From an uncultured Candidatus Saccharibacteria bacterium (GTDB lineage Bacteria > Patescibacteriota > Minisyncoccia > Phycocordibacterales > UBA2100), in assembly GCA_964512835.1 (NCBI GenBank), contig CAZELA010000003.1, positions 152,098-216,097 of the forward strand: a stretch of 64,000 nt of DNA. The letters run 5' to 3'. Position 1 is the first letter of the stretch, and each line of letters begins with the position of its first letter. The notes under the pieces are model-generated. The model was given only the letters and a program-made list of their open reading frames with translations, ran no database searches and was not told the origin of the DNA. Shown here piece by piece: positions 2,734 through 62,180 of this stretch. The position numbers were made by a program, and so were the translations under genes.

Positions 2734-3531
2734 ATGAAACTGGCTACCTGGAACGTGAACGGTATACGTAACGTGCACAAAAAGGGGTTACTGAGCGTGC
2801 TGTTTGACCGAGAGGACCCGGACATTGTCGGGTTTCAGGAGACCAAAGCCGAACAACACCAGTCAGAGGTTGATCTCCCTGACTACGAGGAGTTTTGGAA
2901 TTCTTCCAAGGCTAAAAAAGGGTATTCCGGGACGGCGATATTCACCAAACCGACTCCCGAGGCCGTTCTCTATGACTTTCCGGAAGATATTGTCTCTAAA
3001 TACCGGCTCGAGGATAAGTATGGCGACCCCAACGGCGAGGGCCGTGTAATAGCGGCCGAATACGAGGATTTTCATTTTGTGACGGTCTATACCCCGAACT
3101 CCAAGGACGACCTGTCGCGCATTCCCCTGCGGCACAAGAACTGGGACCCTGCGTTTCTCGAGTACATGAAACGGCTGGAAGAAACAAAGCCCGTGATCTT
3201 TTGCGGCGATCTCAACGTGGCCCATACGCCGGATGACCTTGCGAACGCAAAACCGAATGAAGGCAAGAAGGGTTTCACCATGGAGGAGCGCTCGGGCATA
3301 GACAAGATGATTGATGCGGGATTTGTTGACGCGTTTCGATTACATACACAGGGTAAAGGACACTACACGTGGTGGAGTCACTTCGCGAACGCGCGCGAGC
3401 GGAATGTAGGGTGGCGCATCGACTACTTTTTTGTCAGCGCATCGCTCGCACCGCTTGTTACACGAGTAAAGATCCATGCCGACATCATGGGATCTGACCA
3501 CTGTCCGGTGACGCTGGAGCTAGATTTATAG
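2734..3531 (+). CDS. xthA: exodeoxyribonuclease III (AP endonuclease)
   Basis: MKLATWNVNG, QETK, CGDLNVAH and SDHCPV motifs of the ExoIII/APE1 family. Confidence 0.9.
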   Translation: MKLATWNVNGIRNVHKKGLLSVLFDREDPDIVGFQETKAEQHQSEVDLPDYEEFWNSSKAKKGYSGTAIFTKPTPEAVLYDFPEDIVSKYRLEDKYGDPNGEGRVIAAEYEDFHFVTVYTPNSKDDLSRIPLRHKNWDPAFLEYMKRLEETKPVIFCGDLNVAHTPDDLANAKPNEGKKGFTMEERSGIDKMIDAGFVDAFRLHTQGKGHYTWWSHFANARERNVGWRIDYFFVSASLAPLVTRVKIHADIMGSDHCPVTLELDL

Positions 3532-3539
3532 GGACAGAA

Positions 3540-3960
3540 TAGAATCTGTGACCGATAGACGGAGCAAATGTCCGTTATCCACTTATCCCCATAAGTTATC
3601 CACAGTACTGTCCTTTACGACTTCCTAAAGGACAGTATTATTACCAACGGTGGTTCTTTAAGACTTCTCATTTGATTCTGAAAATAAATGAGATTCATAG
3701 GTACAAAGTACTCTCGCCTACAAAAATAAAGATGCCTCCGCATCTATTGGAGAAAAAGTACGTTTGTCCGAAGGATATCTCAAAGTTCTTTAAAAAGAAT
3801 GGAATGGGAGTCAAAAAAATGTCGCCAGACGGCGGCAATCCGACTAGAGAGAAACGGGTTGCTACGTCTGGCGATATCTTTTTTAAACTTCATATCCGAA
3901 GCGTAGCTTCGGGCATGAATGGAGTTTAAAAAAGATATGGCCGGAGCCGGGACCCAGTGC
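3540..3960. promoter_or_regulatory. AT-rich non-coding region with DnaA-box-like motifs
   Basis: Perfect TTATCCACA at 3596-3604 plus TTATCCACT; 36-bp element at 3570-3605 that recurs inverted at 7544-7577; 10-bp perfect hairpin at 3608-3635; strongly AT-rich relative to the ~58% GC background. Confidence 0.5.
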
Positions 3961-4115
3961 CGATTTAAGGCATTGGGCGGCGAGGCTGGGGCCGGCGGGC
4001 ATTTTGCGGAGCAAAATGAACCGTGGCTCTTTTTTGGGTCCTCTCGGCGAAGTCCAAAGCCCCTATAAACGAGTGCAAGAGGCCGCTATCTGCGGCCTTT
4101 TGCATACATATGTAT

Positions 4116-5594
4116 TTAATTGACGTGGTGTTTTTTTCGGAGTTCCGCTATGGCGGCGGCATCCTCCTCGGCGCGACGGTCCTTCCCCTGCTCCCCCAAC
4201 GTGCGCAGCTCTTCGTTGTTCATGGTGCGCATTTCCGTTGCGCGGGATTCCAAATATTCGGCTGTATTCCTAGTTGGTTCGTCTAAAACCTCTTCGAGCA
4301 ATGCATGCAGTATCCAGCCGATGCGCGGACCGGCAGGCTCCCCCATCGCGATCAATCGTGAGCCGTCGATCTTGAGCATGCCGACCGAAACAGGGTCGCG
4401 CATTGCCTCGTCAATCATCGACATGTACTTACGGAGCCGGAATGGGTGCGCCTTGGGCCGACCCGTGCCGATGCGGTCGCACACACGCAAGTTCAGGAGA
4501 TCTGCGATGTTCTCCTGCCCTACGCGCGCGATCAAGCGACGTACCGCTGAGAGCGTGATCTGGTCGGGATCCGAGAAAAACATGTGCACCCGAACGAGCA
4601 GAGAGACCTTTTCAATGATTTCCTTGGGGTATTTCAAATCAGCAAGGATACGTTTGGCCATCTTTGCGGACACAACATCGTGTCCATGGAAGGTCCAATC
4701 ACCCTTTTCGTCTGACCATTCTCGCGTCGCGGGTTTGCCGATGTCGTGCAAAAGCGCAGCCAGGCGCACATCGAGCGCCCATCCCTGATCTGCTGCATGC
4801 TGCATGCTGCGGAGCAGGTGCTCAAATACATCGAATGAGTGGGCCTGGTTTTGGGCGCATCCAATACCCTCTTCGAGCTCCGGTATCACATACGTGAGGA
4901 CGCCGAGCTTCTGCGCCATATAAATGGCCTGTAACGGCCGGTCCGAGAGGAGAATGCGCGAGAATTCGTCGCGTATACGCTCTTTTGATATTTTGCCGAG
5001 CTGTGCGGCATTTGCTGCAATCCCTGCCATCGTAGTGCCGTCGATCGCAAAATCGAGCTCCGCAGCAATGCGGATAGCGCGCAACATGCGCAGGGCGTCT
5101 TCCTCGAAGCGCTTGTGTGCGTCCCCCACTGTTACCAGCACTTTGCGCTCTATATCGGTCTTTCCCTCGTGCTCGTCGATGAGTTCTCCTGTTGATGGGT
5201 CGTACGCGATTGCATTGATCGTAAAGTCGCGACGTTCCAGGTCGTCGTGGAGCGTGTCGCTGAACCGAACCTCGTCGGGGTGTCGGGCGTTACTGTACTT
5301 TCCCTCGACGCGGTACGGCGTGATCTCGACGACTTTGAGTTTCGGGTTTTCCGACTGCGTCACGACGCCAACCGTGCCGTAGTCGTTCTCGTAAAACGAT
5401 TCTTCGTACAGAGACTGGATTTGTTCCGGGCGTGCATTGGTTGTGATGTCCCAGTCTTTGGGCTCTCGACCGATCAAGAGGTCGCGTACACAACCGCCGA
5501 CAAGATACGCTTCGTACCCTGCCTGCTTCAGTGTCGCGTGAATATCGAGGATTTCCTGCGGAACAAGAAGCTCCTTGTGTGTCATGTGAGACAT
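4116..5594 (-). CDS. cca: CCA-adding tRNA nucleotidyltransferase with HD domain
   Basis: Pol-beta nucleotidyltransferase N-terminus (GGCVRDLLIGREPKDWDITT) and HD domain (HDIGK) in a ~490-aa protein. Confidence 0.85.
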   Translation of the reverse strand: MSHMTHKELLVPQEILDIHATLKQAGYEAYLVGGCVRDLLIGREPKDWDITTNARPEQIQSLYEESFYENDYGTVGVVTQSENPKLKVVEITPYRVEGKYSNARHPDEVRFSDTLHDDLERRDFTINAIAYDPSTGELIDEHEGKTDIERKVLVTVGDAHKRFEEDALRMLRAIRIAAELDFAIDGTTMAGIAANAAQLGKISKERIRDEFSRILLSDRPLQAIYMAQKLGVLTYVIPELEEGIGCAQNQAHSFDVFEHLLRSMQHAADQGWALDVRLAALLHDIGKPATREWSDEKGDWTFHGHDVVSAKMAKRILADLKYPKEIIEKVSLLVRVHMFFSDPDQITLSAVRRLIARVGQENIADLLNLRVCDRIGTGRPKAHPFRLRKYMSMIDEAMRDPVSVGMLKIDGSRLIAMGEPAGPRIGWILHALLEEVLDEPTRNTAEYLESRATEMRTMNNEELRTLGEQGKDRRAEEDAAAIAELRKKHHVN

Positions 5595-50945: not shown

Positions 50946-51437
50946 GTGAATCACTCTATCGGCCGTCAGGTGGTCGTACTCATTGTTCTTGTCCTCCTTT
51001 TGATCGCTGTAGGAATTTTTTCATCCCTCACCAACGGTATTCATCCGCGCGGATTTTCTGATGCAGATACTGCGCAACAAGTACCGCCCCCACCGCCCCG
51101 AACCGAACATATGGAAAAGGTATTGAGCGAGAGCAGGGGATTTTCGCAGTTCGTTTCGTATACCGATAACGGCTTTGAACCTGCCGACGTTACGGTGAGC
51201 AAGGGCGAGACCGTGCGGTTCACCAACAACTCTGCGCACGATCTATGGATCATGGCGAGCGGAGGCGACGGCGGCGTGTACCCGGCAACAGGAAACAACT
51301 GCGGTCAGAGCGATTTTGATACATGCATCGCGCTCCCGCCGAACGAGATCTGGGAGTTCACGTTTACTGCGGCGGGTACGTGGGTGTATCGCAACAATGT
51401 CGAAAAAGAACACGTCGGTGTCATCCGCGTGAAATAA
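50946..51437 (+). CDS. putative cupredoxin-like domain protein (membrane-anchored)
   Basis: N-terminal TM helix, PPPPP linker, then TVRFTNNSAHDLWI...WEFTF...GTWVY...HVGVIRV resembling a cupredoxin fold; GTG start, so start uncertain. Confidence 0.4.
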   Translation: MNHSIGRQVVVLIVLVLLLIAVGIFSSLTNGIHPRGFSDADTAQQVPPPPPRTEHMEKVLSESRGFSQFVSYTDNGFEPADVTVSKGETVRFTNNSAHDLWIMASGGDGGVYPATGNNCGQSDFDTCIALPPNEIWEFTFTAAGTWVYRNNVEKEHVGVIRVK

Positions 51438-51439
51438 CT

Positions 51440-54073
51440 ATGCATCATCACTCAAAACGGGAGCGATACACGGCATGGATCGCGCGGGCCATCATTGCCA
51501 CGTCGATCTTTGTAACGATGCTCTACGTGTTCGACGGCAAGCTCGATCTGTTCACGAGCGCGCCAAATCCGGAATTTGCCGATGCCACACCGTCGGGCAT
51601 GTTGGTTGTACCCGCCTCCGGCGCGAGTCAGAGCTCATATACGGGCAGCTACACGGCTACGTACACGGGCACCTACACGGGCTCGTATGTGCCGCCCACA
51701 CCGACAGGCCTTACGCTCACCTGCGATGCCGCTGGTACCACGGGCACGATCGCGTGGACGAGCGCACCGGGAGCAACCAGCTACTTGGTGCGCGCCGACG
51801 ACGGAGCTTCGCCGTGGACGCCGTCGCGCTGCGACGGTACCGTGAACGACACGGGTGCGGGCGACTACTGCTGGCCGGCTGCCGCAACAAATCCAAAAAC
51901 ATTTACCACACAGGCCGGGCACAGCTACACGGTGTGGGTGCACTCGAACAATGCTGCCGGATACAACACGACTCCGGCACAGGGAACACTCACCTGCTCG
52001 GCAATGCCGTCGTGCACCGTGAACATCTCGCCGAATCCGCTTGCACGCGGCGGCAGCGCAACAGTCACGTGGTCTTCGCAGAACGCATCGAGCATGACGC
52101 TTGCAACCATCGGGCCGGTGGCGACGGCCGGCTCTTCGAGCGTGTCTCCGACGGTTACTACCAGTTACGGCGGCACGGTGTCCAACACCACTCAAAACAT
52201 TTCATACGGGGCTAATGTTCGTGTCGTGCTTGGCTCAGGATCATCATGGTCAGTTCCTGCGGACTGGAACAACTCGAACAACGTGATCGAGTGCATCGGC
52301 GGCGGTGCAGGCGGCAGCCGTGGTGCAGCAGGCGGAGGCGGCGCGTACTCGCGAGCCACCAATGCTGTGCTTCCGATGGGCCGCACTGTTGCGTACAACA
52401 TCGGCACAGCGGGTGTCGGATGGGGTTACGGAGGTCCGACGAACGGCGGCGCAACGTACTTTGGTGCATATTACTGCTACGCGCAGGGTGGTTACGTGGG
52501 CGGCGATCTCTCGTTGACGGGTGGCACAGGCGGACAGTCGTCCGGATATGGCAATGTGAATTATGTCGGCGGAAACGGCGGCGGCGCATCAAACGTCTGG
52601 GACGGTATCCGCACATTCAACGGCGGTGGCGGCGGTGGTGCAGGAGGACCGAACGGTAACGGCTACAGCGGTGCATCCGGTGTCGCGGCGAGCGTCGGCG
52701 GTAATGGCGGATACGGTGGTGCCGGTTACGGTGGCGGTGGCGGTGGCGGCGGAGGATTTACCTACTACTGGGCTTACACATACGGTGGCACCGGCGGAAC
52801 CGCGTATAACGGTGCTGAATGGTCGTCTGCCGGATCCGGCGGCGGAGGCGGCGGAGGTGGTGGCGGTTACTACGGCGGCGCAGGCGGTCACGGCGGCTAC
52901 TACGGCGGTGGTGGAGGCGGTGGCGCGCAGGGCTATGCAGTCGACGGCTACGGAGGCTACGGCCGACAGGGTGTTGTGGTAATCACGTACCAGCCGATCA
53001 TCTACACTCCGCAAAACAATACGGCTACATGCCCCGCAACACTTACGGTACAAACTCCGACTGCCGCACTCACACTTGCGGGCGGTGTCTCATCACAAAC
53101 GGTGAACGTGGGTCAGCAGTCGACCTGGACGTGGTCGTCAACATTCGGCAATACCTACACAACAATCGTGACGCTTGATCAGGCCGATGCGTGCGGTAAC
53201 GGCGTTGGACCCATCACATGGCCGTACGGTACGAGCGCGAGCGGCAACTACACTGCGACGTGGCAGGCCTGCACCGCAGGACGCACGTACAACTATAGTT
53301 ATCGCGTCACGAATTCTGCGGGCTACATTGCAACCGCACCGACCGCGTCGGTCACCGTTCGACCGCTCCCGTCGTGCACGCTCACACCGACCCCGGCAAC
53401 CATCGTTCGCGGTGGTAGTGCTGCACTCGCCTGGACCTCGGCAAACAGCACATCAGGCTCGATTGCGCCGGGAGGCACGAACATGTCGCCGCTTGCAAGC
53501 GGACAGGTATCTGTTGCCCCGACCGTTACGACCACGTACACAGGATCGGTGACGGGTGCAGGTGGTGCAGGCAGCTGCCAGACCACGGTGAACGTAACGT
53601 GTGCACCGATCTATCAGTGCTCCGGCCAGCAGATCACGTATACCGACAGTAACTGCAATACAACGAACCTCAATGGCGGCGTTGCCTGCGCAGCACCGTC
53701 GTACTGCCAGGCAGGTCAGGCGGTCTGTATAAACCCGCCGCCGTCATTCACTGCCGGCACCACTGCAGGCGGCACGCCGACCACCGGTGACTTGGAAGCG
53801 AATCCGCAGCTCGTGCGAAAGGGAACATCGGCAAAGCTGTACTGGAACGTATCGAATGTGGCGAGCTGCACCGTAACGGGTAACAACGGCGAAACGCTGG
53901 CTTCGGGCTGCACCGGCTCGGTCTGCACCTCGGGTAGCGCAGGTCGCACGACTGCGGCGATCAACTCGAGCGTGATTTACTCGCTCCGCTGCAATGCGCT
54001 CTCGGGCGTGACGCCGTCGTCGTTCAATCACACGGTAACGGTGCTGCCGTCGCCGGAATACGAAGAGAAATAA
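51440..54073 (+). CDS. giant secreted glycine-rich protein (877 aa)
   Basis: Signal anchor, Ig/fibronectin-like Thr/Ser-rich domains, and a ~300-aa central region of GGxGG/GYGG repeats ending GYGRQGVVVITYQP; alternative-frame ORFs across it are high-GC artefacts. Confidence 0.55.
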   Translation: MHHHSKRERYTAWIARAIIATSIFVTMLYVFDGKLDLFTSAPNPEFADATPSGMLVVPASGASQSSYTGSYTATYTGTYTGSYVPPTPTGLTLTCDAAGTTGTIAWTSAPGATSYLVRADDGASPWTPSRCDGTVNDTGAGDYCWPAAATNPKTFTTQAGHSYTVWVHSNNAAGYNTTPAQGTLTCSAMPSCTVNISPNPLARGGSATVTWSSQNASSMTLATIGPVATAGSSSVSPTVTTSYGGTVSNTTQNISYGANVRVVLGSGSSWSVPADWNNSNNVIECIGGGAGGSRGAAGGGGAYSRATNAVLPMGRTVAYNIGTAGVGWGYGGPTNGGATYFGAYYCYAQGGYVGGDLSLTGGTGGQSSGYGNVNYVGGNGGGASNVWDGIRTFNGGGGGGAGGPNGNGYSGASGVAASVGGNGGYGGAGYGGGGGGGGGFTYYWAYTYGGTGGTAYNGAEWSSAGSGGGGGGGGGGYYGGAGGHGGYYGGGGGGGAQGYAVDGYGGYGRQGVVVITYQPIIYTPQNNTATCPATLTVQTPTAALTLAGGVSSQTVNVGQQSTWTWSSTFGNTYTTIVTLDQADACGNGVGPITWPYGTSASGNYTATWQACTAGRTYNYSYRVTNSAGYIATAPTASVTVRPLPSCTLTPTPATIVRGGSAALAWTSANSTSGSIAPGGTNMSPLASGQVSVAPTVTTTYTGSVTGAGGAGSCQTTVNVTCAPIYQCSGQQITYTDSNCNTTNLNGGVACAAPSYCQAGQAVCINPPPSFTAGTTAGGTPTTGDLEANPQLVRKGTSAKLYWNVSNVASCTVTGNNGETLASGCTGSVCTSGSAGRTTAAINSSVIYSLRCNALSGVTPSSFNHTVTVLPSPEYEEK

Positions 54074-54321: not shown

Positions 54322-55521
<1,200 letters not shown>

Positions 55522-55555
55522 TCCAAGCCAACTCGGTTTCTCTCCAGAAACCAAA

Positions 55556-55586
55556 GAAAACCCCGGCCCAAAGCCGGGGTTTTCTA
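55556..55586. terminator. bidirectional terminator shared by tuf and the reverse transcriptase gene
   Basis: AAAACCCCGGCC-CAAA-GCCGGGGTTTTCT. Confidence 0.7.
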
Positions 55587-57041
55587 GTTGTTCTTAAATG
55601 CTACTTTGCGCGATTTACCGCGAATCTTCTCTCTGAGTTTTCGGGCATTTTTTACCGTTTTTATCTGCTCTTTAACCTCTGGGGCACTCAATTTTGACGC
55701 AACCACTCGTGAGTAGGCTAGGAAATTTTTCTTAGCGACACCGTACTTTGTATGTAAGTACTTTTTCGGCGCACCACTGCGCTTTTTCCTTGCAGCATTC
55801 TTCACTGATTTCTTCACCGCCTTATTCATCCTTCTCTGAAACTTCGCAATTGCGGCGTGACGTAGATAAACCTTCTGCCCGTCGGTCTGGATGCCAAGGT
55901 ATTGAACCGTTGCCTTCTTCATTGTTTCGGGATTTAGAATAGCCAAGCGCTCTTCAGTTCCGATGCAGTCGCGTCTTTCTGTTTTTTCCTTTTTTATAAC
56001 CAAAGCCTGCTCCTTTATCGCCTCGTATACGAAGTTCACAATTTGTGCAGCGTTCTGCGGCGAACACACAATCAGGATGTCGTCCGAGTATCGCCGATAG
56101 AGTCCATTTATCTTTCTCACGGCGGTTGCTACGGCGGCATCAAAGTCGAGCATGTACATGTTGGCCAATACACAACTAATAGGCGACCCCTGAGGAATTC
56201 CTTTGCTTTCCTTGTGAATCTCCTGTAAATGCTTTGAAATCACTTCGCGTTTGTATTCGGGGGCTGTAAATATTCGTGACCGACGTTTTTTCATGGCCTC
56301 ATCGGCGAACTTACGAATTCGTCCTTTTCGGACAAATGTAAAATTTGTGACCGCTCTAAAAACCTTGTAGTGGTCTTCAGGTAGTCGTTCATACCCCATT
56401 ATCTGACTCCATTTTGATTTAAGTTTACTGTGATCAATCTCCTCGAAGAATTTTGAGACATCTATCGCCAGAACACTACACGGTGCGTGAGCATCAATGA
56501 ACGCGAAAACTTCTCCTGCGAAATCAGCGTTACTTTTTCCTCTACCCGTCACAGGGCTCTTGATGCTTCTGTAAGCAATGACAGCATCACTCAGGTTCAT
56601 TTCGGAAAGTATCTTTTCGTAGCGTTCTGAAAGTTGCGCCGCGTACCATGAAAACACAAGCGCATCCTTGTGCGACGAAAAATCAATGGGTCTCTTTTTT
56701 ACAAAAATCTCACGTTTGCGCGCACCGGACTTCCTATTTTTTGGACGTCTGTAGCGACGGTCTCGTGTATCGATACGAATAAACGGGTAGAAGGAGTGAC
56801 GGGATACCGAATCCGGTGACAACATAGATTTCGTAATGTCTTCCTTCAGTCGAGATATCCGACTATCAAAATGCAAATATGTCCGCTTCGGTGGACGGTC
56901 TTGCCCGTCCCCGTTTAGTTTTTTTGATTCATTTACAAACCAACTGCTCCACCGGTCATTTTCCATATTCAAAGTAGACCCAACACCCCCTGGGTTCCTG
57001 GTACCTCGGGTTTTATCCCGTTGGCAGGGGTGTGGGCGCAA
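55584..57041 (-). CDS. free-standing reverse transcriptase (RNA-directed DNA polymerase), unclassified family
   Basis: RT motifs: LAIDVSKFFEEIDH (motif 2), GIPQGSPISCVLANMYM (motif 4, QGxxxSP), YRRYSDDILIVC (motif 5, YxDD), QYLGIQTDG (motif 7); highly basic C-terminal tail; start codon uncertain (first Met of the ORF given). Confidence 0.85.
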   Translation of the reverse strand: MRPHPCQRDKTRGTRNPGGVGSTLNMENDRWSSWFVNESKKLNGDGQDRPPKRTYLHFDSRISRLKEDITKSMLSPDSVSRHSFYPFIRIDTRDRRYRRPKNRKSGARKREIFVKKRPIDFSSHKDALVFSWYAAQLSERYEKILSEMNLSDAVIAYRSIKSPVTGRGKSNADFAGEVFAFIDAHAPCSVLAIDVSKFFEEIDHSKLKSKWSQIMGYERLPEDHYKVFRAVTNFTFVRKGRIRKFADEAMKKRRSRIFTAPEYKREVISKHLQEIHKESKGIPQGSPISCVLANMYMLDFDAAVATAVRKINGLYRRYSDDILIVCSPQNAAQIVNFVYEAIKEQALVIKKEKTERRDCIGTEERLAILNPETMKKATVQYLGIQTDGQKVYLRHAAIAKFQRRMNKAVKKSVKNAARKKRSGAPKKYLHTKYGVAKKNFLAYSRVVASKLSAPEVKEQIKTVKNARKLREKIRGKSRKVAFKNN

Positions 57042-57738
57042 ATCCGCGAGCGACTTTTTGGGGTCGGTACCGTCAGTGACGGCCAGGACTTAATTACCAT
57101 CAAGTTATCATTAACATTATGAACATGACTGAGTACATCATCGCGATTGCGGTGAATGCATGTGGCCTGCTCCTAATGATGCTAGGTGCCAGTTCCTGTG
57201 AATTGACATCAAGTAACTTAGTTCCCCATAGCCTATGCCATGGGGGCTCGCGGTATTAGCGTATTAACGCCAGAGGTATTCTACGCCTACCTGACAACGG
57301 GTCAATCAATCGTTGATACGCGCAATCGAGCACTCAGCACATTTCGTGTCGTTATCGTCGATGTTCCCGACAATGTTGCCGCCCGACTGCTGCATGTGCT
57401 TGAGACACAAGGCAACCCGGTGCCCGTTAGTTTCGACTATGTACTTTGCAGGATACATGACGGCCATAGAGTGCATTATATAGGGAATTGGGGTCAGTCC
57501 CCACATATCTCGTCGTTGCTACGACTCGCAAGCAGGGCCCGTCTCGCTATCCCATGCGCCGTCGCGCACGGGCCCCAAGCTCCGATCGAGTTTTGTCTTG
57601 TATCGAGCAGTGTTCGCTACAAGCGGAAAACTCCTCCAGAAACGAGAAACGTGTGGTGAAAACAAAAACCCCGGCATCGCTGCTGGGGTTTGACGGACCA
57701 AATGCAAATTGGCACTGTGTGCGTGGGAGGATACCAGC
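57042..57738 (-). ncRNA. candidate structured non-coding region upstream of the RT
   Basis: ~700 bp with no convincing CDS; AT-rich promoter-like stretch at 57100-57240; contains copy A of a 200-bp structured element (57488-57690) with hairpins GGGGTCAGTCCCC and GGGCCCGT...ACGGGCCC. Confidence 0.3.
57488..57690. repeat. 200-bp repeat element, copy A
   Basis: ~90% identical to 59537-59740; ends in the CTCCTCCAGAAACGAGAAACGTGTGG + GAAAACAAAAACCCCGG...CCGGGG module. Confidence 0.8.
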
Positions 57739-58125
57739 ATGACAAGAGCTCGGTACGAAAAGCCCACGTTCTCACATGTTTTTCTCGATAGCGACACGAT
57801 CACGGTTCGAAATAAGCTCGGCGTTGCGATAACGTTTTCGATCCAAACCGATATCCCGATCGAACGACACGATCAGATGCTCCGGAGTGTCCTCGTCGAC
57901 GGGTGGGGGAAAATGCAGCTCGTACTCCATGAGCCGTACTCTGCCCACGATGTTGCGCACGAACCTGCGAACCGGCGCGACAACGTTGTCGACGGAGGCT
58001 ACGACGCCAAGCTTATCAAGCAGTGGTTTGGTATCGAGTGGCACGAGTTCCAGTTGATGTACAACCATGCTCGGTTACAGATAGTCACTGCAATCGAAGA
58101 GCGCCTCAGTGCGCTCACAAAGTAA
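57739..58125 (+). CDS. hypothetical protein
   Basis: GGGAGG RBS, 128 aa, followed by a repeat-module terminator. Confidence 0.45.
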   Translation: MTRARYEKPTFSHVFLDSDTITVRNKLGVAITFSIQTDIPIERHDQMLRSVLVDGWGKMQLVLHEPYSAHDVAHEPANRRDNVVDGGYDAKLIKQWFGIEWHEFQLMYNHARLQIVTAIEERLSALTK

Positions 58126-58250
58126 AACTCCGGTCGTTAGGCCGGAGTTTTCTGCTTAGACCGAATCAATCCCTCCCGAAACGAGAAGCGTGTGGCCTGC
58201 CTGCGCAGGCAGGTGAAAACAAAAACCCCGGGCGTGCTAGGATTTTTGCA

Positions 58251-58553
58251 ATGAGGTGTCCTACGTTCTTGCGCGTACTAGCGGGTTTTGTCCTGAGTGG
58301 ATGCATCCTATACGTCTTTGTAGGCACGACTTCGGCCTTGGAAAGGGTCGGTCAAATTTTAGGGGGTGCAATACTGGTGCCGCTAGTGTTAATGCTTGCT
58401 ATGGGTATGACGTTTAGCTTTGCTAGACTATTGGACCGCCAGAACATCGGCACAATTGCAGCCGACTTTAAGTATTCGTTAGCGATATGGATTTTAGGCT
58501 TTGCTATATATGTACCCATCACTCTGTGGTTAGTAAGTATCTATGGCGAATAG
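58251..58553 (+). CDS. small membrane protein
   Basis: Three TM helices; start overlaps the end of a repeat module. Confidence 0.4.
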   Translation: MRCPTFLRVLAGFVLSGCILYVFVGTTSALERVGQILGGAILVPLVLMLAMGMTFSFARLLDRQNIGTIAADFKYSLAIWILGFAIYVPITLWLVSIYGE

Positions 58554-58839
58554 CGACATGCGTAATGGATGGTTCTGGATCCAGCGAACAACGATGTTTG
58601 TGGTTGCCACGGGTGCAAACCTTTCAACTTTGTTCATAGGCTTCGACCAGCCATGGCTGAATTTACCAGTGGTTGCACTGCTGTCGTATGCTTCGGGGCG
58701 AATGTTTCATCGCAAAACAGGTACTGCCTGGCGTACCGACTTGGTGTGGGCCGTTGGTTTAAGTTTTGTGGGACCCATCGCTCTCATTTTGGTGATGGCG
58801 GAAACCTACGGATGGGTGGAAATGTTCGGACTAGTTTGA
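58543..58839 (+). CDS. small membrane protein
   Basis: Start overlaps the previous gene stop (translational coupling); TM helices; ends at the repeat module at 58845. Confidence 0.4.
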   Translation: MANSDMRNGWFWIQRTTMFVVATGANLSTLFIGFDQPWLNLPVVALLSYASGRMFHRKTGTAWRTDLVWAVGLSFVGPIALILVMAETYGWVEMFGLV

Positions 58840-58844
58840 GGAAT

Positions 58845-58940
58845 TCACTCCTCCAGAAACGAGAAGCGTGTGGCTTGCCTCCTGCATGCGCAGGCAGATG
58901 AAAACAAAAACCCCGGCGCGATGGCCGGGGCTTTAAAATA
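58845..58940. repeat. repeat module / bidirectional terminator
   Basis: CTCCTCCAGAAACGAGAAGCGTGTGG + palindromic CCTGCATGCGCAGG + GAAAACAAAAACCCCGGCGCGATGGCCGGGG. Confidence 0.7.
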
Positions 58941-59514
58941 TCCGCTTTCGATAGACTGCCGCAATAAGCATTACGTTGACGACGAGTAGATATATTTGGA
59001 AGCTTGAATTCTCAATACTCCACACATGCATAGAGGGGAGCACTAGAAGCACGCTTACGAGCGAGGTTACATAAGTAAACCCTGTCTCGGTCTCTGGGAA
59101 CTTCCACGCCTTTACGATGGTGGGGAGTGCTGCAAAGAAGTCTCCGAGCGCCGCAAGAAGTATGGCGTATGTCGGGATGCCGACCACAAGCCAGAGAATG
59201 AGCGCGAGTATCGAGAATCCGCCGCAGGTGATATCAAAGGATGTCGCTTTCCAGAAACTCTTTCGATTCCAGAATGATGCAATAAATACGAGGAGTGGCA
59301 GGAATCCTGCGAGGAAGGTACGAATTGTTACCCACACATCAGCTCCTGCAGTGAGTGCTGCACCTGTACCAATGAGCGGTGCGAGTGCCCACAGTCCCCA
59401 AGAAATCCGATTGGGTTGAGTCGTGCCGCGAATGGTGTCCCGTACGTACGCGTATCCACCGATACAGCTTATGAGCGCGCTCAGTATCACCAGCCAGTGC
59501 TCAAAGCTCAGCAT
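58933..59514 (-). CDS. polytopic membrane protein
   Basis: Six predicted TM helices; start refined to MLSFEHW because the track N-terminus runs into repeat copy B. Confidence 0.5.
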   Translation of the reverse strand: MLSFEHWLVILSALISCIGGYAYVRDTIRGTTQPNRISWGLWALAPLIGTGAALTAGADVWVTIRTFLAGFLPLLVFIASFWNRKSFWKATSFDITCGGFSILALILWLVVGIPTYAILLAALGDFFAALPTIVKAWKFPETETGFTYVTSLVSVLLVLPSMHVWSIENSSFQIYLLVVNVMLIAAVYRKRIF

Positions 59515-59536
59515 GGTCAGATAGTAGCACTGGGGG

Positions 59537-59740
59537 ATGGGGTCAGTCCCCACATGGCTCGTCACTACTGCGACTCGCACGCAGGGCCCGTCTCGCTATC
59601 CCAAACGCCGTCGCATTTGGGCCCCAAGCTCCGACCGAGTTTTGTCTTGTATCGAGCAGTGCGCGCTACAAGCGGAAAACTCCTCCAGAGACGGAAAACG
59701 TGTGGTGAAAACAAAAACCCCGGTCGATTGGCCGGGGTCC
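59537..59740. repeat. 200-bp repeat element, copy B
   Basis: See copy A; the differences are not adenine-specific. Confidence 0.8.
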
Positions 59741-59757
59741 TGCTTTTGCGCAGGATG

Positions 59758-60279
59758 TTATGCGAGGAGCAGGGGGAAGTCTGAGACGCGTTTGTACACG
59801 CCTCTCCGCCATCGCGCAATGCTCTGGATGATTCCGTATAGCTCGATGAAGGTTTTCACCGCATCCTGCAGGCGAATCGCCACGAAGTCATCCGGTGCGC
59901 CACTGTTCGCTGGATTCATGAGAATCAGGTACTCCTCGTCGACGACGAGTCGCGAGAACACGGCGATCCGGTAGGAATTTGATACAGCGAGCGATTCCCA
60001 TCGTGGATTGTCCGGATTCACAATCTGCATCGCGGGGCCGACACCCATGAGTTTCGCGTACGCATCACGAAGTGATTCGCCGCGCTCTGGGGTCGGGATG
60101 AAAAAATACACGTGACCGCACAGCAGTTCGGTCGTGGCCGACAGCTTGTTGATTTCGTCCCACGGCGCCGTTGCGTTTGGGAAGCCTGTCATATCGTAAA
60201 GACCCCACCCCGTGCGCTTCACCGCGGAGCAGATTTCACCGCCATCCGGTAACACTGTTTCCTGAGCCAGTCGCAACAT
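59758..60279 (-). CDS. hypothetical protein
   Basis: GGAGGA RBS before MLRLAQ; repeat-module terminator downstream. Confidence 0.4.
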   Translation of the reverse strand: MLRLAQETVLPDGGEICSAVKRTGWGLYDMTGFPNATAPWDEINKLSATTELLCGHVYFFIPTPERGESLRDAYAKLMGVGPAMQIVNPDNPRWESLAVSNSYRIAVFSRLVVDEEYLILMNPANSGAPDDFVAIRLQDAVKTFIELYGIIQSIARWRRGVYKRVSDFPLLLA

Positions 60280-60317
60280 TCTGTCCTCCAAGGCGTTGTT
60301 CCCGCCAGCACCCTACA

Positions 60318-60410
60318 CCAAAATCCAGAGACGGAAAACGTGTTGCCTGCCTCCTGCATGCGCAGGCATGGCGCATTCAGAACCCCCCCCCGTCGATTGT
60401 TCGAGGGTTG
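60318..60410. repeat. repeat module (degenerate copy)
   Basis: CCAGAGACGGAAAACGTGTTGCCTGCCTCCTGCATGCGCAGGCA followed by a C-rich tract. Confidence 0.6.
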
Positions 60411-60466
60411 CACAAATCTTCAGTTCCCGTTAGGGTGACGCTCGGTTGCAACAGGGAGGACTCGAA

Positions 60467-60952
60467 ATGCTTACGATCAATCCGGTCAGGGATCGAGACG
60501 AGGCGCTCCGCCGCATCGAATCGCTCGACAATGCCCTCATAGGCTGCGGGCACGTGTGCGCGTGTCGCGCGCGGATGGCGCTCGTGATCACCGCCGAACA
60601 CATGACGCGGGTCGAGGCCGTGGTCGCAGAAGTGCGGTCCGGCACGTCCGCAGGCGGCATAGAAGCGCTCCGCGAGATCATCGGCGCCGATATCAATGAG
60701 GTGCAGGCCGAAGTGGCGCTGCGCATCGAGAACACGATGCAGCATCCCGACTACGTGCGCACCAAGAAGGGCGGGGGCATGGCCGCCGCCGAGCGCTCGC
60801 TCTCCGAGATGCTCGAGCAAGAACTCGACCCCACCGGGTATGCAGAGCGCCGGACGGAGCGACTGATGCACGCCATACTCAGCGGTGATCACTCGGCTCT
60901 GCCCGCGGGAATGCATGTCATTCAAATCGGCGGTCGAGGACCCCTGAACTAG
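60467..60952 (+). CDS. hypothetical protein
   Basis: GGGAGGA RBS; strong terminator hairpin at 60963-61000. Confidence 0.4.
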   Translation: MLTINPVRDRDEALRRIESLDNALIGCGHVCACRARMALVITAEHMTRVEAVVAEVRSGTSAGGIEALREIIGADINEVQAEVALRIENTMQHPDYVRTKKGGGMAAAERSLSEMLEQELDPTGYAERRTERLMHAILSGDHSALPAGMHVIQIGGRGPLN

Positions 60953-61052
60953 ATCGTTTCCAAGACGGCCACGCAGAGCACTGCGTGGCCGCATTGTTTT
61001 ACATAAAAACTCCGCCGGAACGGCCGGGACTTTGCCTTGCTACACTGGTGGC

Positions 61053-62114
61053 ATGAACGAGAAGTGGGGTGGGCTGCACAAAATGCGCGAGCGATTGCGC
61101 ACTGAGCGCGGTGTGGGTGGTCGCATTGCAGACGAGGACGAACAAGCGGGCCTGCGCGATGCAGCACTCGCAAAGTTCAAACTCAAGCAAGATCTGTTCC
61201 GACTCGAGCATTCAGAGCTCGCACAAAAGTTGGAGGGATGGCTCGGAGAAATTGATTTTGACGAACTCAATGAGATTTTTGCAGAGCAGCTGAGGCGCTC
61301 GGGTATCGACACCAGTCGTCTCAACCCGCTGTTTCGAGAAAATATTTACATGGACGGCGGCACCGATACTGCGACCATGTCGTATACCGGCTCCATCAAT
61401 GCCATACAGATTCATGCGAACGAATTTGAAGACTACGTCGCCCGTCAGAACACATCGAATGTCGATCCGCGCCTTATTTTTATGCAGCACCTCATACACG
61501 AGGGTGCTCATGCCGCCTCAGCCAATATAACGGTGATGAAGGACCAGGCGAGCGGCTTTGTGCAATTGTCCGATTCGGGGCTCAATCATCGTCACGTCAA
61601 TGCGGTACTGCAAGGCGACGATACGTTCTCCCTCGAGGAAAACAATGAGTTCCTCATGTTCAACGAGGGTGTGACCGAGCTTGTCGCCGATGAGGTGCTG
61701 TCCGAGTATCTGAAGCGTCGTCCGCTTGCCGGACTCTCAGGCGAGATTGCTAACAGCACATTCGATAATTTGGTGGGCACTCACTCCACCGAGGGAGTGG
61801 GTTATGCGACAGCTCGTCAGTTTGTGACTGCATTTGTGGATGCCATCGCGCGAGAGGTCGGTATTCCCGAAGATGTAGTGTGGTCGGCTTTGAAGCGACA
61901 GTATTTCCGTGGGGATTCGCTCGCAGAGAAAGAAACAAGTGATCTGCTCAACGAGAGTCTTGGCGAGATTTTCACCGAAATGCTGAGCGAGGCGGATACG
62001 GCGGGGTTCTTGCGAGCAATACGAAGAAGCTATCCAAAAATCACACTCACCAAAGATCAGGCGATCAATGCGTGGCTTGCTCACTTGCAGCTCAAGCGAG
62101 GGGGCTCAAGCTAA
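61053..62114 (+). CDS. hypothetical protein with HExxH motif (possible zinc metallopeptidase)
   Basis: HLIHEGAHA motif in a 354-aa ORF; no other recognisable domain. Confidence 0.4.
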   Translation: MNEKWGGLHKMRERLRTERGVGGRIADEDEQAGLRDAALAKFKLKQDLFRLEHSELAQKLEGWLGEIDFDELNEIFAEQLRRSGIDTSRLNPLFRENIYMDGGTDTATMSYTGSINAIQIHANEFEDYVARQNTSNVDPRLIFMQHLIHEGAHAASANITVMKDQASGFVQLSDSGLNHRHVNAVLQGDDTFSLEENNEFLMFNEGVTELVADEVLSEYLKRRPLAGLSGEIANSTFDNLVGTHSTEGVGYATARQFVTAFVDAIAREVGIPEDVVWSALKRQYFRGDSLAEKETSDLLNESLGEIFTEMLSEADTAGFLRAIRRSYPKITLTKDQAINAWLAHLQLKRGGSS

Positions 62115-62180
62115 ATCCTCCGGAAACGCACAACGTGTGGTGCAAGCAAAACCCCGCCGAGGACGGCGGGGCATAACGTT
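62113..62180. repeat. repeat module / bidirectional terminator
   Basis: CCTCCGGAAACGCACAACGTGTGGTGCAAGCAAAACCCCGCCGAGGACGGCGGGG. Confidence 0.6.

What the first reader, a model, noticed from the sequence alone, without database searches (positions are those of the whole stretch)
57488..59740. Two ~200-bp, ~90% identical direct repeats 2 kb apart with conserved hairpins
57488-57690 and 59537-59740 align over their whole length. The differences are scattered and not adenine-specific, so this is not a DGR TR/VR pair. Both copies keep the hairpins GGGGTCAGTCCCC and GGGCCC(GT)...GGGCCC, a substitution in one stem being accommodated by a G-U pair. Both end in the same 45-nt module and terminator-like stem. 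Predicted ORFs overlapping them on both strands are probably artefacts. This looks like a structured RNA element or a miniature mobile element present in multiple copies; one copy lies in the leader region of the RT.
Basis: seen in the sequence. Interest (0 to 1): 0.6.

Follow-up and report, generated by a model that had tools for sequence, protein, structure and literature searches.

The report
Duplicated structured RNA-like element beside DRT2
The two 186-base repeats are real copies of a small, hairpin-rich non-coding element from an undescribed family; it is not the RNA that the neighbouring antiviral reverse transcriptase uses, and its function is unknown.

Summary
57489-57674 and 59538-59723 match without gaps at 89.8% identity (blastn E=7e-69).

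The repeat is composite, read on the minus strand:
- A hairpin, a T-run and a ~45-nt motif. This "module" recurs four more times between 58.1 and 62.2 kb.
- A ~150-nt insert of three hairpins: P0, D1 and D2.

The D1+D2 core (~95 nt) has three more relatives:
- A divergent third copy in the window, 3922-4031 (+).
- A copy in a Candidatus Paceibacteria genome (L013).
- A copy in a closely related metagenome contig (L009/L030).

Across the five copies, 12 of 32 base pairs change on both sides and stay paired. G-U pairs place the structure on the minus strand. D2 is followed by a U-run, like an intrinsic terminator, in three of the five copies. There is no Rfam match, no protein homolog and no conserved reading frame.

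The RT is a DRT2. Its real non-coding RNA lies at 56967-57268, between copy A and the RT, with its own promoter. It is conserved in four homologous DRT2 loci that lack the repeat.

Best reading: paralogous copies of a new small structured RNA, embedded in the boundary repeats of a variable gene array downstream of tuf. A selfish repeat is the main rival. Function is unknown and interest is moderate.

The parts
57489..57674 (-). Repeat copy A (186 nt, gapless match to copy B)
   Evidence: 89.8% identity, E=7e-69
59538..59723 (-). Repeat copy B
   Evidence: A second assembly's contig (L031) breaks inside it
57631..57691 (-). Copy A, 5' part: hairpin (57665-57691), TTTTTGTTTTC, and the motif CACCACACGTTTCTCGTTTCTGGAGGAG. 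Together these are the short module.
59680..59741 (-). Copy B, 5' part: hairpin (59714-59741, scored as an intrinsic terminator on the minus strand), T-run and module motif
57588..57633 (-). Copy A, hairpin P0 (GAGUUUUCCGCUUGUAGCG...CGAUACAAGACAAAACUC)
   Evidence: The stem is invariant between A and B, and the loop differs at 2 positions
59637..59682 (-). Copy B, hairpin P0
57538..57585 (-). Copy A, domain D1: UCGGAGCUUGGGG, a 9-bp hairpin with a GACG loop, then AUAGCGAGACGGG
   Evidence: All 6 A/B differences here are in the stem and keep the pairs
59587..59634 (-). Copy B, domain D1
57499..57537 (-). Copy A, domain D2: long hairpin made of P3 (three G-U pairs) and hp2 (AGCA loop). In the three copies outside this island, D2 is followed by a U-run.
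59548..59586 (-). Copy B, domain D2
3867..4035 (+). Third, divergent copy (C): a ~35-bp hairpin (3867-3945), D1+D2 core (3922-4031), then UUUUUU. It lies between the convergent ExoIII-family and CCA-adding-enzyme genes.
   Evidence: z=-8.4; 73.5 bits with model R2, which includes this copy
58168..58247 (-). Short module copy without the P0/D1/D2 insert
58846..58934 (-). Short module copy without the insert
60324..60388 (-). Degenerate short module copy. Homology to the related contig L030 starts at its edge.
62113..62172 (-). Short module copy
56967..57268 (-). The true DRT2 non-coding RNA: a basal stem CCGCGAGC/GCUCGCGG encloses a ~194-nt template region, followed by a 3' scaffold. Not part of the repeat.
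   Evidence: 82 pairs, 39 with compensatory changes across 5 loci
57278..57305 (-). Promoter-like site TTGACC-16-TAGAAT for the DRT2 ncRNA/RT. It is the only such site in 56900-60400.
55584..56966 (-). DRT2 reverse transcriptase (probable start at MENDRW...)
   Evidence: (PADLOC Drt2, E=4.6e-127)

Best explanation
The two repeats are paralogous copies of a composite, non-coding intergenic element read on the minus strand.

Shown:
- Each copy consists of (i) a boundary module (hairpin, TTTTTGTTTTC and a ~27-nt motif ending in GGAGG) and (ii) a ~150-nt insert of three hairpins, P0, D1 and D2.
- The module also occurs without any insert at four other places in the same 6-kb stretch downstream of tuf.
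- The D1+D2 core belongs to a small family with no Rfam counterpart. I found five members: copies A, B and a divergent copy C in this window, one in another Paceibacteria genome, and one in a close relative.
- Its helices are kept by compensatory changes, and its G-U pairs fit only this strand.
- It is not the DRT2 RNA, and it is not a conserved leader of the membrane-protein gene downstream of copy B.

Inferred:
- The element is a small RNA of about 100-190 nt, and its 3' hairpin D2 acts as its own intrinsic terminator. D2 is followed by a U-run in copy C, L013 and L009.
- Copies A and B arose by duplication of one module-plus-insert unit within the variable array. They have lost the U-run, so any transcript would run on toward the next gene, or these copies are decaying.
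- After the duplication the stems diverged quickly under a constraint to stay paired, while the joining segments stayed identical. That pattern points to a sequence-specific partner (a protein or another RNA) that recognises the unpaired segments.

What the RNA does is not known.
For: - The repeat is real and composite.
- The core has homologs. L013 5694-5803 was found by an exact 20-mer scan of 185,579 species genomes. L009 869-1005 scores 81.5 bits. Window 3922-4031 scores 21 bits (E~0.003) with a model built without it.
- Structure. On four sequences, 5 pairs change on both sides, and 1 of 500 shuffles reaches that. On five sequences, 92% of cells are paired, 12 pairs change on both sides, and 0 of 500 shuffles reach that. 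Slid controls pair only 30-44% of cells.
- Strand. 31-32 of 32 pairs form on the given strand, against 24-27 on the opposite strand, for A, B and L013.
- A U-run follows D2 in copy C, L013 and L009.
- Of the 19 A/B differences, 13 are in D1+D2. The 9 that lie in the hp1/hp2 stems all keep the pairs.
- In the core, unpaired columns are 22-25 of 27 identical among A, B and L013. Paired columns are 52-57 of 64 identical.
- Non-coding: no conserved frame, no protein hit, no Pfam or PADLOC hit for the overlapping ORFs.
- Not the DRT2 RNA.
- Not a family-wide leader: close homologs of the membrane protein have 14-145-nt upstream gaps without the element.
Against: - No promoter could be identified upstream of any copy. 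Each copy follows another terminator-like hairpin directly.
- Copies A and B lack the U-run.
- There are only five members, and the five-sequence alignment was fitted to the model, which inflates the pair counts.
- Template-switch repair of quasi-palindromes in DNA can create apparently compensatory changes without any selection on RNA.
- Copy C has a ~35-bp near-perfect hairpin, which is more typical of selfish palindromic repeats than of small RNAs.
- At the orthologous site upstream of the membrane-protein gene, the close relative has the module but not the insert. That is an insertion/deletion polymorphism, as expected of a mobile element.
- The core of L013 is as close to A and to B (85-87%) as A is to B, which suggests horizontal spread.
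Confidence: 0.45

Rival explanations
1. It is a selfish or mobile intergenic repeat, of the REP/BIME or MITE kind, or a hairpin element moved as single-stranded DNA by an IS200-type Y1 transposase. On this view the hairpins are recognition structures, not a functional RNA. The short modules would be internally deleted derivatives that keep only the two ends (...CTGGAGG | GACTGAYC...).
For: - There are several copies per genome, always in intergenic DNA beside terminator-like hairpins.
- The insert is present in the window but absent at the same module position upstream of the orthologous membrane-protein gene in L009/L030.
- The core in L013 sits between a 16-nt direct repeat, GT(T/G)GGGGCTTTTGTTT, 133 nt apart, which looks like a duplicated target.
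- An IS200-like Y1 transposase gene lies 2 kb from the L013 copy.
- The A, B and L013 cores are equidistant.
- Copy C folds with z=-8.4 and has a ~35-bp hairpin.
Against: - There are no terminal inverted repeats and no target-site duplication around A or B.
- The window has no Y1 transposase homolog.
- A and B share both flanks. The module part is 93% identical between them, against 60-81% to the other modules. That fits a segmental duplication better than two separate insertions.
- Conservation is highest in the unpaired linkers while the stems covary, which is the pattern of a functional RNA.
- The element is very rare. Exact scans found it in 1 of 185,579 species genomes and found nothing related in the metagenome or viral collections.
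Confidence: 0.3
2. It is a cis-acting 3'-end structure: a stack of hairpins that terminates or insulates transcription, or protects upstream mRNAs from 3' exonucleases. It would have been duplicated together with the boundary module of the gene array.
For: - Every copy lies just after another terminator-like hairpin with a T-run on the same strand.
- Three copies end in a hairpin plus U-run and sit between convergent genes, or between a gene and the 3' end of the next.
- Terminator stems are expected to evolve by compensatory change.
Against: - Copy A has no upstream gene on its strand.
- Plain terminators do not keep 16- and 22-nt unpaired segments identical between different genomes.
- D1 is not needed for termination.
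- A and B have lost the U-run yet remain well conserved.
Confidence: 0.15
3. Copy A is part of the DRT2 system, either as part of its template RNA or as a leader that controls the RT. Copy B would then be an orphan copy of that RNA.
For: - Copy A lies 450-700 nt upstream of the DRT2 RT on the same strand.
- One plus-strand frame is open through both copies, antisense to the RT strand. In Klebsiella DRT2 the product gene is read antisense to the RNA.
Against: - The ~300 nt directly upstream of the RT are conserved in sequence and structure in four homologous DRT2 loci, with a covarying basal stem. That accounts fully for the DRT2 RNA.
- None of those loci has the repeat.
- A promoter-like site lies between copy A and that RNA.
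- Three other family members (C, L013, L009) have no RT nearby.
- The open frame is not conserved in L013 or in copy C.
Confidence: 0.03
4. The copies are coding: C-terminal ends of paralogous proteins, or a small basic protein on the plus strand.
For: Frame 2 of the plus strand is open across both copies (57488-57742 and 59537-59974).
Against: - The A/B amino-acid changes in that frame are radical and coincide with compensatory stem changes.
- A 1-nt indel between copy C and the others breaks every frame.
- A six-frame search of 5.8 billion proteins gave no hit at E<=10.
- There is no Pfam or PADLOC hit.
Confidence: 0.02

Closest known systems
DRT2 non-coding RNA (template and scaffold RNA of the defence-associated reverse transcriptase type 2; Tang et al. 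2024, doi 10.1101/2024.05.08.593200; Wilkinson et al. 2024, PMC12039810)
   Same: It is a structured RNA of a few hundred nucleotides on the same strand as a DRT2 RT and upstream of it. One antisense frame is open.
   Different: The real DRT2 RNA of this locus lies elsewhere, at 56967-57268, and is conserved with the RT. The repeat is not conserved with the RT. It lies upstream of the promoter and has no basal stem enclosing a template. It also occurs at three sites with no RT.
REP / BIME mosaic intergenic repeats and their RAYT (IS200-like Y1) transposases; also MITE-type repeats such as ERIC, BOX and Correia elements
   Same: These are short, hairpin-rich, multi-copy elements in intergenic DNA near gene ends. 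They are built from modules that occur in different combinations. One relative lies 2 kb from a Y1 transposase gene.
   Different: Copy number is very low. There are no inverted-repeat ends or target duplications. The unpaired linkers are more conserved than the stems. No Y1 transposase is present in this window.
Small RNA genes that end in their own intrinsic terminator
   Same: The size is ~100-190 nt, with a 3' hairpin plus U-run in three of five copies. The structure is strand-specific, and the position does not depend on neighbouring genes.
   Different: No promoter or transcript is known. Two copies lack the U-run. There is no match to any of the 4227 Rfam families.
Integron attC sites and gene-cassette arrays
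   Same: The short module recurs in one orientation between small, mostly unknown genes. A close relative carries different genes between the same modules, and homology breaks at the module edge.
   Different: No integron integrase was seen and there are no RYYYAAC/GTTRRRY core sites. The module is not an overall imperfect palindrome, and the genes point both ways.

Membership tests
DRT2 ncRNA | Lies directly upstream of the RT and is conserved together with it in homologous loci | tested here: not met
   The conserved block is 56967-57268. The repeat is absent from L001, L003, L005 and L007
DRT2 ncRNA | A basal stem (SL2) encloses a template region and is followed by a 3' scaffold | tested here: not met
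   This is found only in 56967-57268, where CCGCGAGC/GCUCGCGG covaries with CTACGAG/CTCGTAG and CTATGAG/CTCATAG. The repeat has two or three independent hairpins
DRT2 ncRNA | A stop-free antisense reading frame through the concatenated template | tested here: inconclusive
   One plus-strand frame is open in A and B. No template boundaries exist with which to define a repeat unit, and the frame is not kept in L013 or copy C
DGR template/variable repeat pair | The differences between the two repeats fall only at adenines of one copy | tested here: not met
   Of 19 differences, at most 6 involve A (or T) of any one copy or strand
DGR template/variable repeat pair | A DGR-type RT, with the variable repeat at the 3' end of a target gene | tested here: not met
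   The RT is a DRT2 (PADLOC E=4.6e-127). Both repeats are intergenic
Riboswitch / conserved 5' leader | Found upstream of homologous genes in many genomes | tested here: not met
   Homologs of the membrane protein at 73-83% identity have 14-145-nt upstream gaps without the element. The five copies have unrelated neighbours, and three face convergent genes
Any Rfam family | Covariance-model score at the gathering threshold, or at least E<10 | tested here: not met
   Only terminator-like chance matches were found
MITE | Terminal inverted repeats and a target-site duplication | tested here: not met
   The flanks of A and B show neither. L013 has a 16-nt direct repeat around the core, which could also be part of a terminator
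REP/REPIN with RAYT | Many copies per genome and a cognate Y1 (IS200-like) transposase gene | tested here: inconclusive
   There are three copies in 64 kb and no Y1 homolog in the window. A Y1_Tnp gene lies 2 kb from the L013 copy. The rest of the genome was not available
Integron attC / cassette array (for the short module) | Core sites RYYYAAC and GTTRRRY at the ends of an imperfect palindrome, and an IntI integrase | tested here: not met
   By inspection of the module copies, neither core site nor an overall palindrome is present. No recombinase was found among the ORFs scanned from 55 to 64 kb. The array may continue past the window end
Intrinsic terminator (domain D2) | A GC-rich hairpin followed immediately by a U-run on the transcribed strand | tested here: inconclusive
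   Met in copy C (UUUUUU), L013 (GCUUUUGUUUAUUU) and L009 (UUUUGAUUU). Not met in A and B, where ACUGACCCCA follows

The most novel reading that the evidence does not exclude
The three-hairpin element is a new class of small RNA in Paceibacteria. On this reading it is functionally tied to the boundary repeats of a variable gene-cassette array downstream of tuf, an array that resembles an integron but lacks its sites and integrase and carries defence genes such as DRT2. The RNA might serve as a cofactor or regulator of cassette exchange or cassette expression. Its fast-changing but always paired stems would then be specificity determinants.
Probability: 0.12. Interest if true: 0.75.

Novelty: new variant of a known kind. 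Interest (0 to 1): 0.4.

Why it matters
If the element is a functional RNA, it adds a new structured RNA family to the Candidate Phyla Radiation. These organisms have tiny genomes and almost no characterised small RNAs.

Three practical points follow:
- The analysis corrects the annotation of this DRT2 locus. The RNA to use for any work on this CPR-type DRT2 is 56967-57268, not the repeat.
- In this clade the antisense reading frame of the DRT2 template is not always stop-free. This bears on the question, left open by Tang et al., of how divergent DRT2 clades express their product.
- The region downstream of tuf differs by whole genes between two close relatives, and homology breaks next to the same short repeat. 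That is worth testing as a cassette-exchange mechanism.

Tried and rejected
- Rfam, at gathering thresholds over the whole window and at E<10 over 55-61 kb and 3.4-4.25 kb: only tRNAs and terminator-like chance matches.
- The idea that the repeat is the DRT2 ncRNA: rejected after aligning the upstream regions of four DRT2 homologs.
- The idea that copy B is a riboswitch for the conserved membrane protein: rejected, because four homolog loci lack any long leader.
- Exact-pattern scans. The genome collection gave one true hit, L013. The metagenome collection gave 15 hits, all unrelated coding sequence. Three viral scans gave one chance hit and then nothing.
- blastn against phage and plasmid collections: no match.
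- Search of 5.8 billion proteins with a chimera of all six reading frames of the core, meant to catch spurious ORFs called on related elements: nothing at E<=10.
- Look-up of the window's own RT, to read beyond the window: not on record.
- The GGGGCCC/GGGCCCU pairing, as a possible anti-terminator: no covariation, and only partly kept in the divergent copies.
- A search for a shared promoter upstream of the five copies: none found.
- tblastn of the L013 Y1 transposase against the window: no homolog.
Full report
The repeat finder reports one gapless 186-nt direct repeat, 57489-57674 and 59538-59723, at 90% identity and 2049 nt apart. blastn of either copy against the window gives 89.8% identity and E=7e-69, with no further full-length copy. 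A second public assembly of the same population (L031, 99.94% identical to 58008-59646) has a contig that ends inside copy B, as expected at a true repeat. The two copies differ at 19 positions and the changes are not adenine-specific.

**2. The strand is minus.**
- Six differences lie in the hairpin CCCGUGCGC-GACG-GCGCAUGGG (copy A) / CCCAAAUGC-GACG-GCGUUUGGG (copy B).
- Three lie in UCGU-AGCA-ACGA / UCGC-AGUA-GUGA.
- All nine keep the pairs when the sequence is read on the minus strand.
- Three of these pairs are G-U and would be A-C on the plus strand. Over the whole predicted structure, 31-32 of 32 pairs form on the minus strand and only 24-27 on the plus strand.

**3. The repeat is composite.** Read on the minus strand it has four parts (coordinates):
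- A hairpin whose sequence differs between A and B, followed by the invariant TTTTTGTTTTCACCACACG and the motif TTTCTCGTTTCTGGAGGAG.
- Hairpin P0 (57633-57588).
- Domain D1 (57585-57538).
- Domain D2 (57537-57499), followed by ACTGACCCCA.

The first part, the module, also occurs without the rest at 58168-58247, 58846-58934, 60324-60388 and 62113-62172, always in the same orientation. The string GGGGTTTTTGTTT occurs nowhere else in the 64 kb. In the close relative L009/L030, the module upstream of the orthologous membrane-protein gene reads ...CTGGAGG|GACTGATC.... In copy B, about 150 nt (P0, D1 and D2) lie exactly at that bar.

**4. The core has relatives.**
- An exact 20-mer from D1 hit one of 185,579 species genomes, a Candidatus Paceibacteria MAG (L013 5694-5803).
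- A weak blastn hit led to a diverged copy in L009 (869-1005).
- A covariance model built from these four sequences found a fifth at window 3922-4031 (+), at 21 bits and E~0.003. That copy lies between the convergent ExoIII-family and CCA-adding-enzyme genes.
- A rebuilt model with filters off found nothing further in the window or in the 14 loci searched with it.

Copy C has the same layout: a long hairpin, then D1, D2 and UUUUUU. It folds with z=-8.4.

**5. Structure and covariation.** The consensus is a 9-bp hairpin inside a short outer helix (D1), then a long hairpin made of P3 and hp2 (D2).
- On four sequences, 5 pairs change on both sides, and 1 of 500 shuffles reaches that.
- On five sequences, 92% of cells pair and 12 pairs change on both sides, with 0 of 500 shuffles reaching that. 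Pairings slid by 1-3 columns give 30-44% paired. That alignment was fitted to the model, so these numbers lean toward the structure.
- D2 is followed by a U-run in copy C, L013 and L009, which makes it an intrinsic-terminator-like 3' end on this strand. A and B have ACUGACCCCA instead.

**6. It is not coding and not a known RNA.** Several frames are open, but none is conserved and an indel in copy C breaks them. A six-frame chimera found no protein among 5.8 billion. Rfam gave nothing, and neither did the phage, plasmid or viral collections.

**7. It is not the DRT2 RNA.**
- The ORF 55584-57041 (-) is a DRT2 RT (PADLOC E=4.6e-127; the nearest relatives, at 49% identity, are named Drt2 from Paceibacterota).
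- In Klebsiella DRT2 a 281-nt RNA directly upstream of the RT holds a template enclosed by stem SL2, and the product gene is read antisense to that RNA.
- Four homologous loci share about 300 nt of conserved sequence directly upstream of the RT with window 56967-57268.
- The consensus fold of that sequence has 82 pairs, 39 of them with compensatory changes. It includes a basal stem (CCGCGAGC/GCUCGCGG here, CTACGAG/CTCGTAG and CTATGAG/CTCATAG elsewhere) that encloses 194-204 nt.
- The only sigma-70-like promoter site in 56900-60400 is TTGACC-16-TAGAAT at 57305-57278, just upstream of this RNA.
- Copy A lies beyond that promoter, and none of the homologous loci has it.

**8. It is not a leader of the neighbouring genes.** The 193-aa membrane protein downstream of copy B belongs to a well-conserved Patescibacteria/Bdellovibrionota family with no Pfam domain. 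Its homologs have short upstream gaps and no such element. By inspection, their starts are preceded by TGnTAnnnT six or seven bases before the ATG, which suggests leaderless transcription from a promoter downstream of the element. The five family members have unrelated neighbours in every orientation.

**9. Context.** The contig L030 is from a close relative: the 360-aa and 161/168-aa genes are 94% identical in DNA and the tuf end is 90% identical. It carries the same kind of array next to the 3' end of tuf, but with different genes between the shared ones. For the 161/168-aa gene block, homology stops exactly at the edge of a module (window 60389, L030 2039). DRT2 is present only in the window. 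Copies A and B share both flanks, and their module parts are far more alike (93%) than either is to the other modules (60-81%). A segmental duplication of one module-plus-insert unit is therefore the simplest origin. Within the core, however, A-B identity (85%) is no higher than A-L013 (85%) or B-L013 (87%), and nearly all differences are in stems. Either the stems evolve fast under a pairing constraint, or the cores have been exchanged.

**10. Verdict.** What is shown: a real, non-coding, strand-specific, structured element from a small undescribed family, embedded in a lineage-specific boundary repeat, and separate from the DRT2 RNA. What is inferred: that it is a small RNA with its own terminator (confidence about 0.45). 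The rivals are a selfish hairpin repeat (0.3) and a cis-acting 3'-end structure (0.15). No promoter, transcript or partner is known, so the function stays open. Interest is moderate, 0.4.

Noticed in passing
window 56967-57305 (-), 57119-57259 (+): This is the true DRT2 non-coding RNA with its promoter. Antisense to its template is a 46-codon ORF, MNMTEYIIAIAVNACGLLLMMLGASSCELTSSNLVPHSLCHGGSRY. It has a hydrophobic N-terminal part and a TATCAT box 7 nt before the ATG. The homologous antisense frame is stop-free across the template in L001, L003 and L005. In the window it is interrupted by TGA at 57077-57079, and in L007 by three stops. The never-ending ORF of Klebsiella DRT2 is therefore not obviously kept in this CPR clade.
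   Followed up: partly
window 55521-62172; L030 1-7324: A variable gene array lies directly downstream of tuf. Six copies of one ~60-90-nt module (including the two inside the repeats) lie between small genes that point either way, all in one orientation. A close relative has the same array beside tuf, with shared and different genes, and for one shared gene block the homology ends exactly at a module edge. No recombinase was seen in the part available.
   Followed up: partly
window 3531-4116: A 585-nt non-coding gap lies between the convergent ExoIII-family and CCA-adding-enzyme genes. It holds the divergent third copy of the element and a ~35-bp near-perfect hairpin (3867-3945). The fold has z=-8.4.
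   Followed up: partly
window 57306-57470 (-): A small ORF (54 aa, MHSMAVMYPAKY...CLKH...CAEC) lies between copy A and the DRT2 promoter. It has a Cys-x2-His ... Cys-x2-Cys spacing, and TATAAT lies 7 nt before an internal ATG. There is no Pfam or PADLOC match, and it is unclear whether the gene is real.
   Followed up: no
window 58933-59514 (-): A 193-aa multi-pass membrane protein with no Pfam domain is conserved at 60-83% identity across Patescibacteria and Bdellovibrionota (557 hits). In close relatives its start is preceded by TGnTAnnnT plus 6-7 nt, which suggests leaderless mRNAs.
   Followed up: partly
L013 3051-3623 (-), 4760-4847 (-), 5661-5809: The Paceibacteria contig with the closest core relative carries an IS200-like Y1 transposase gene and a tRNA-Ser gene within 2.7 kb of it. 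The core there sits between two copies of GT(T/G)GGGGCTTTTGTTT, 133 nt apart.
   Followed up: partly
window 51323-54073 (+): A 916-aa ORF upstream of tuf has long glycine- and tyrosine-rich runs (GGGGGG, GYGG) and repeated Thr/Ser-rich domains. It looks like a surface protein.
   Followed up: no
L031 (NCBI GCA_054403375.1, JBQVBM010047207.1): This 1639-nt contig from another assembly is 99.94% identical to window 58008-59646 and ends inside repeat copy B. The repeat evidently breaks short-read assemblies.
   Followed up: yes
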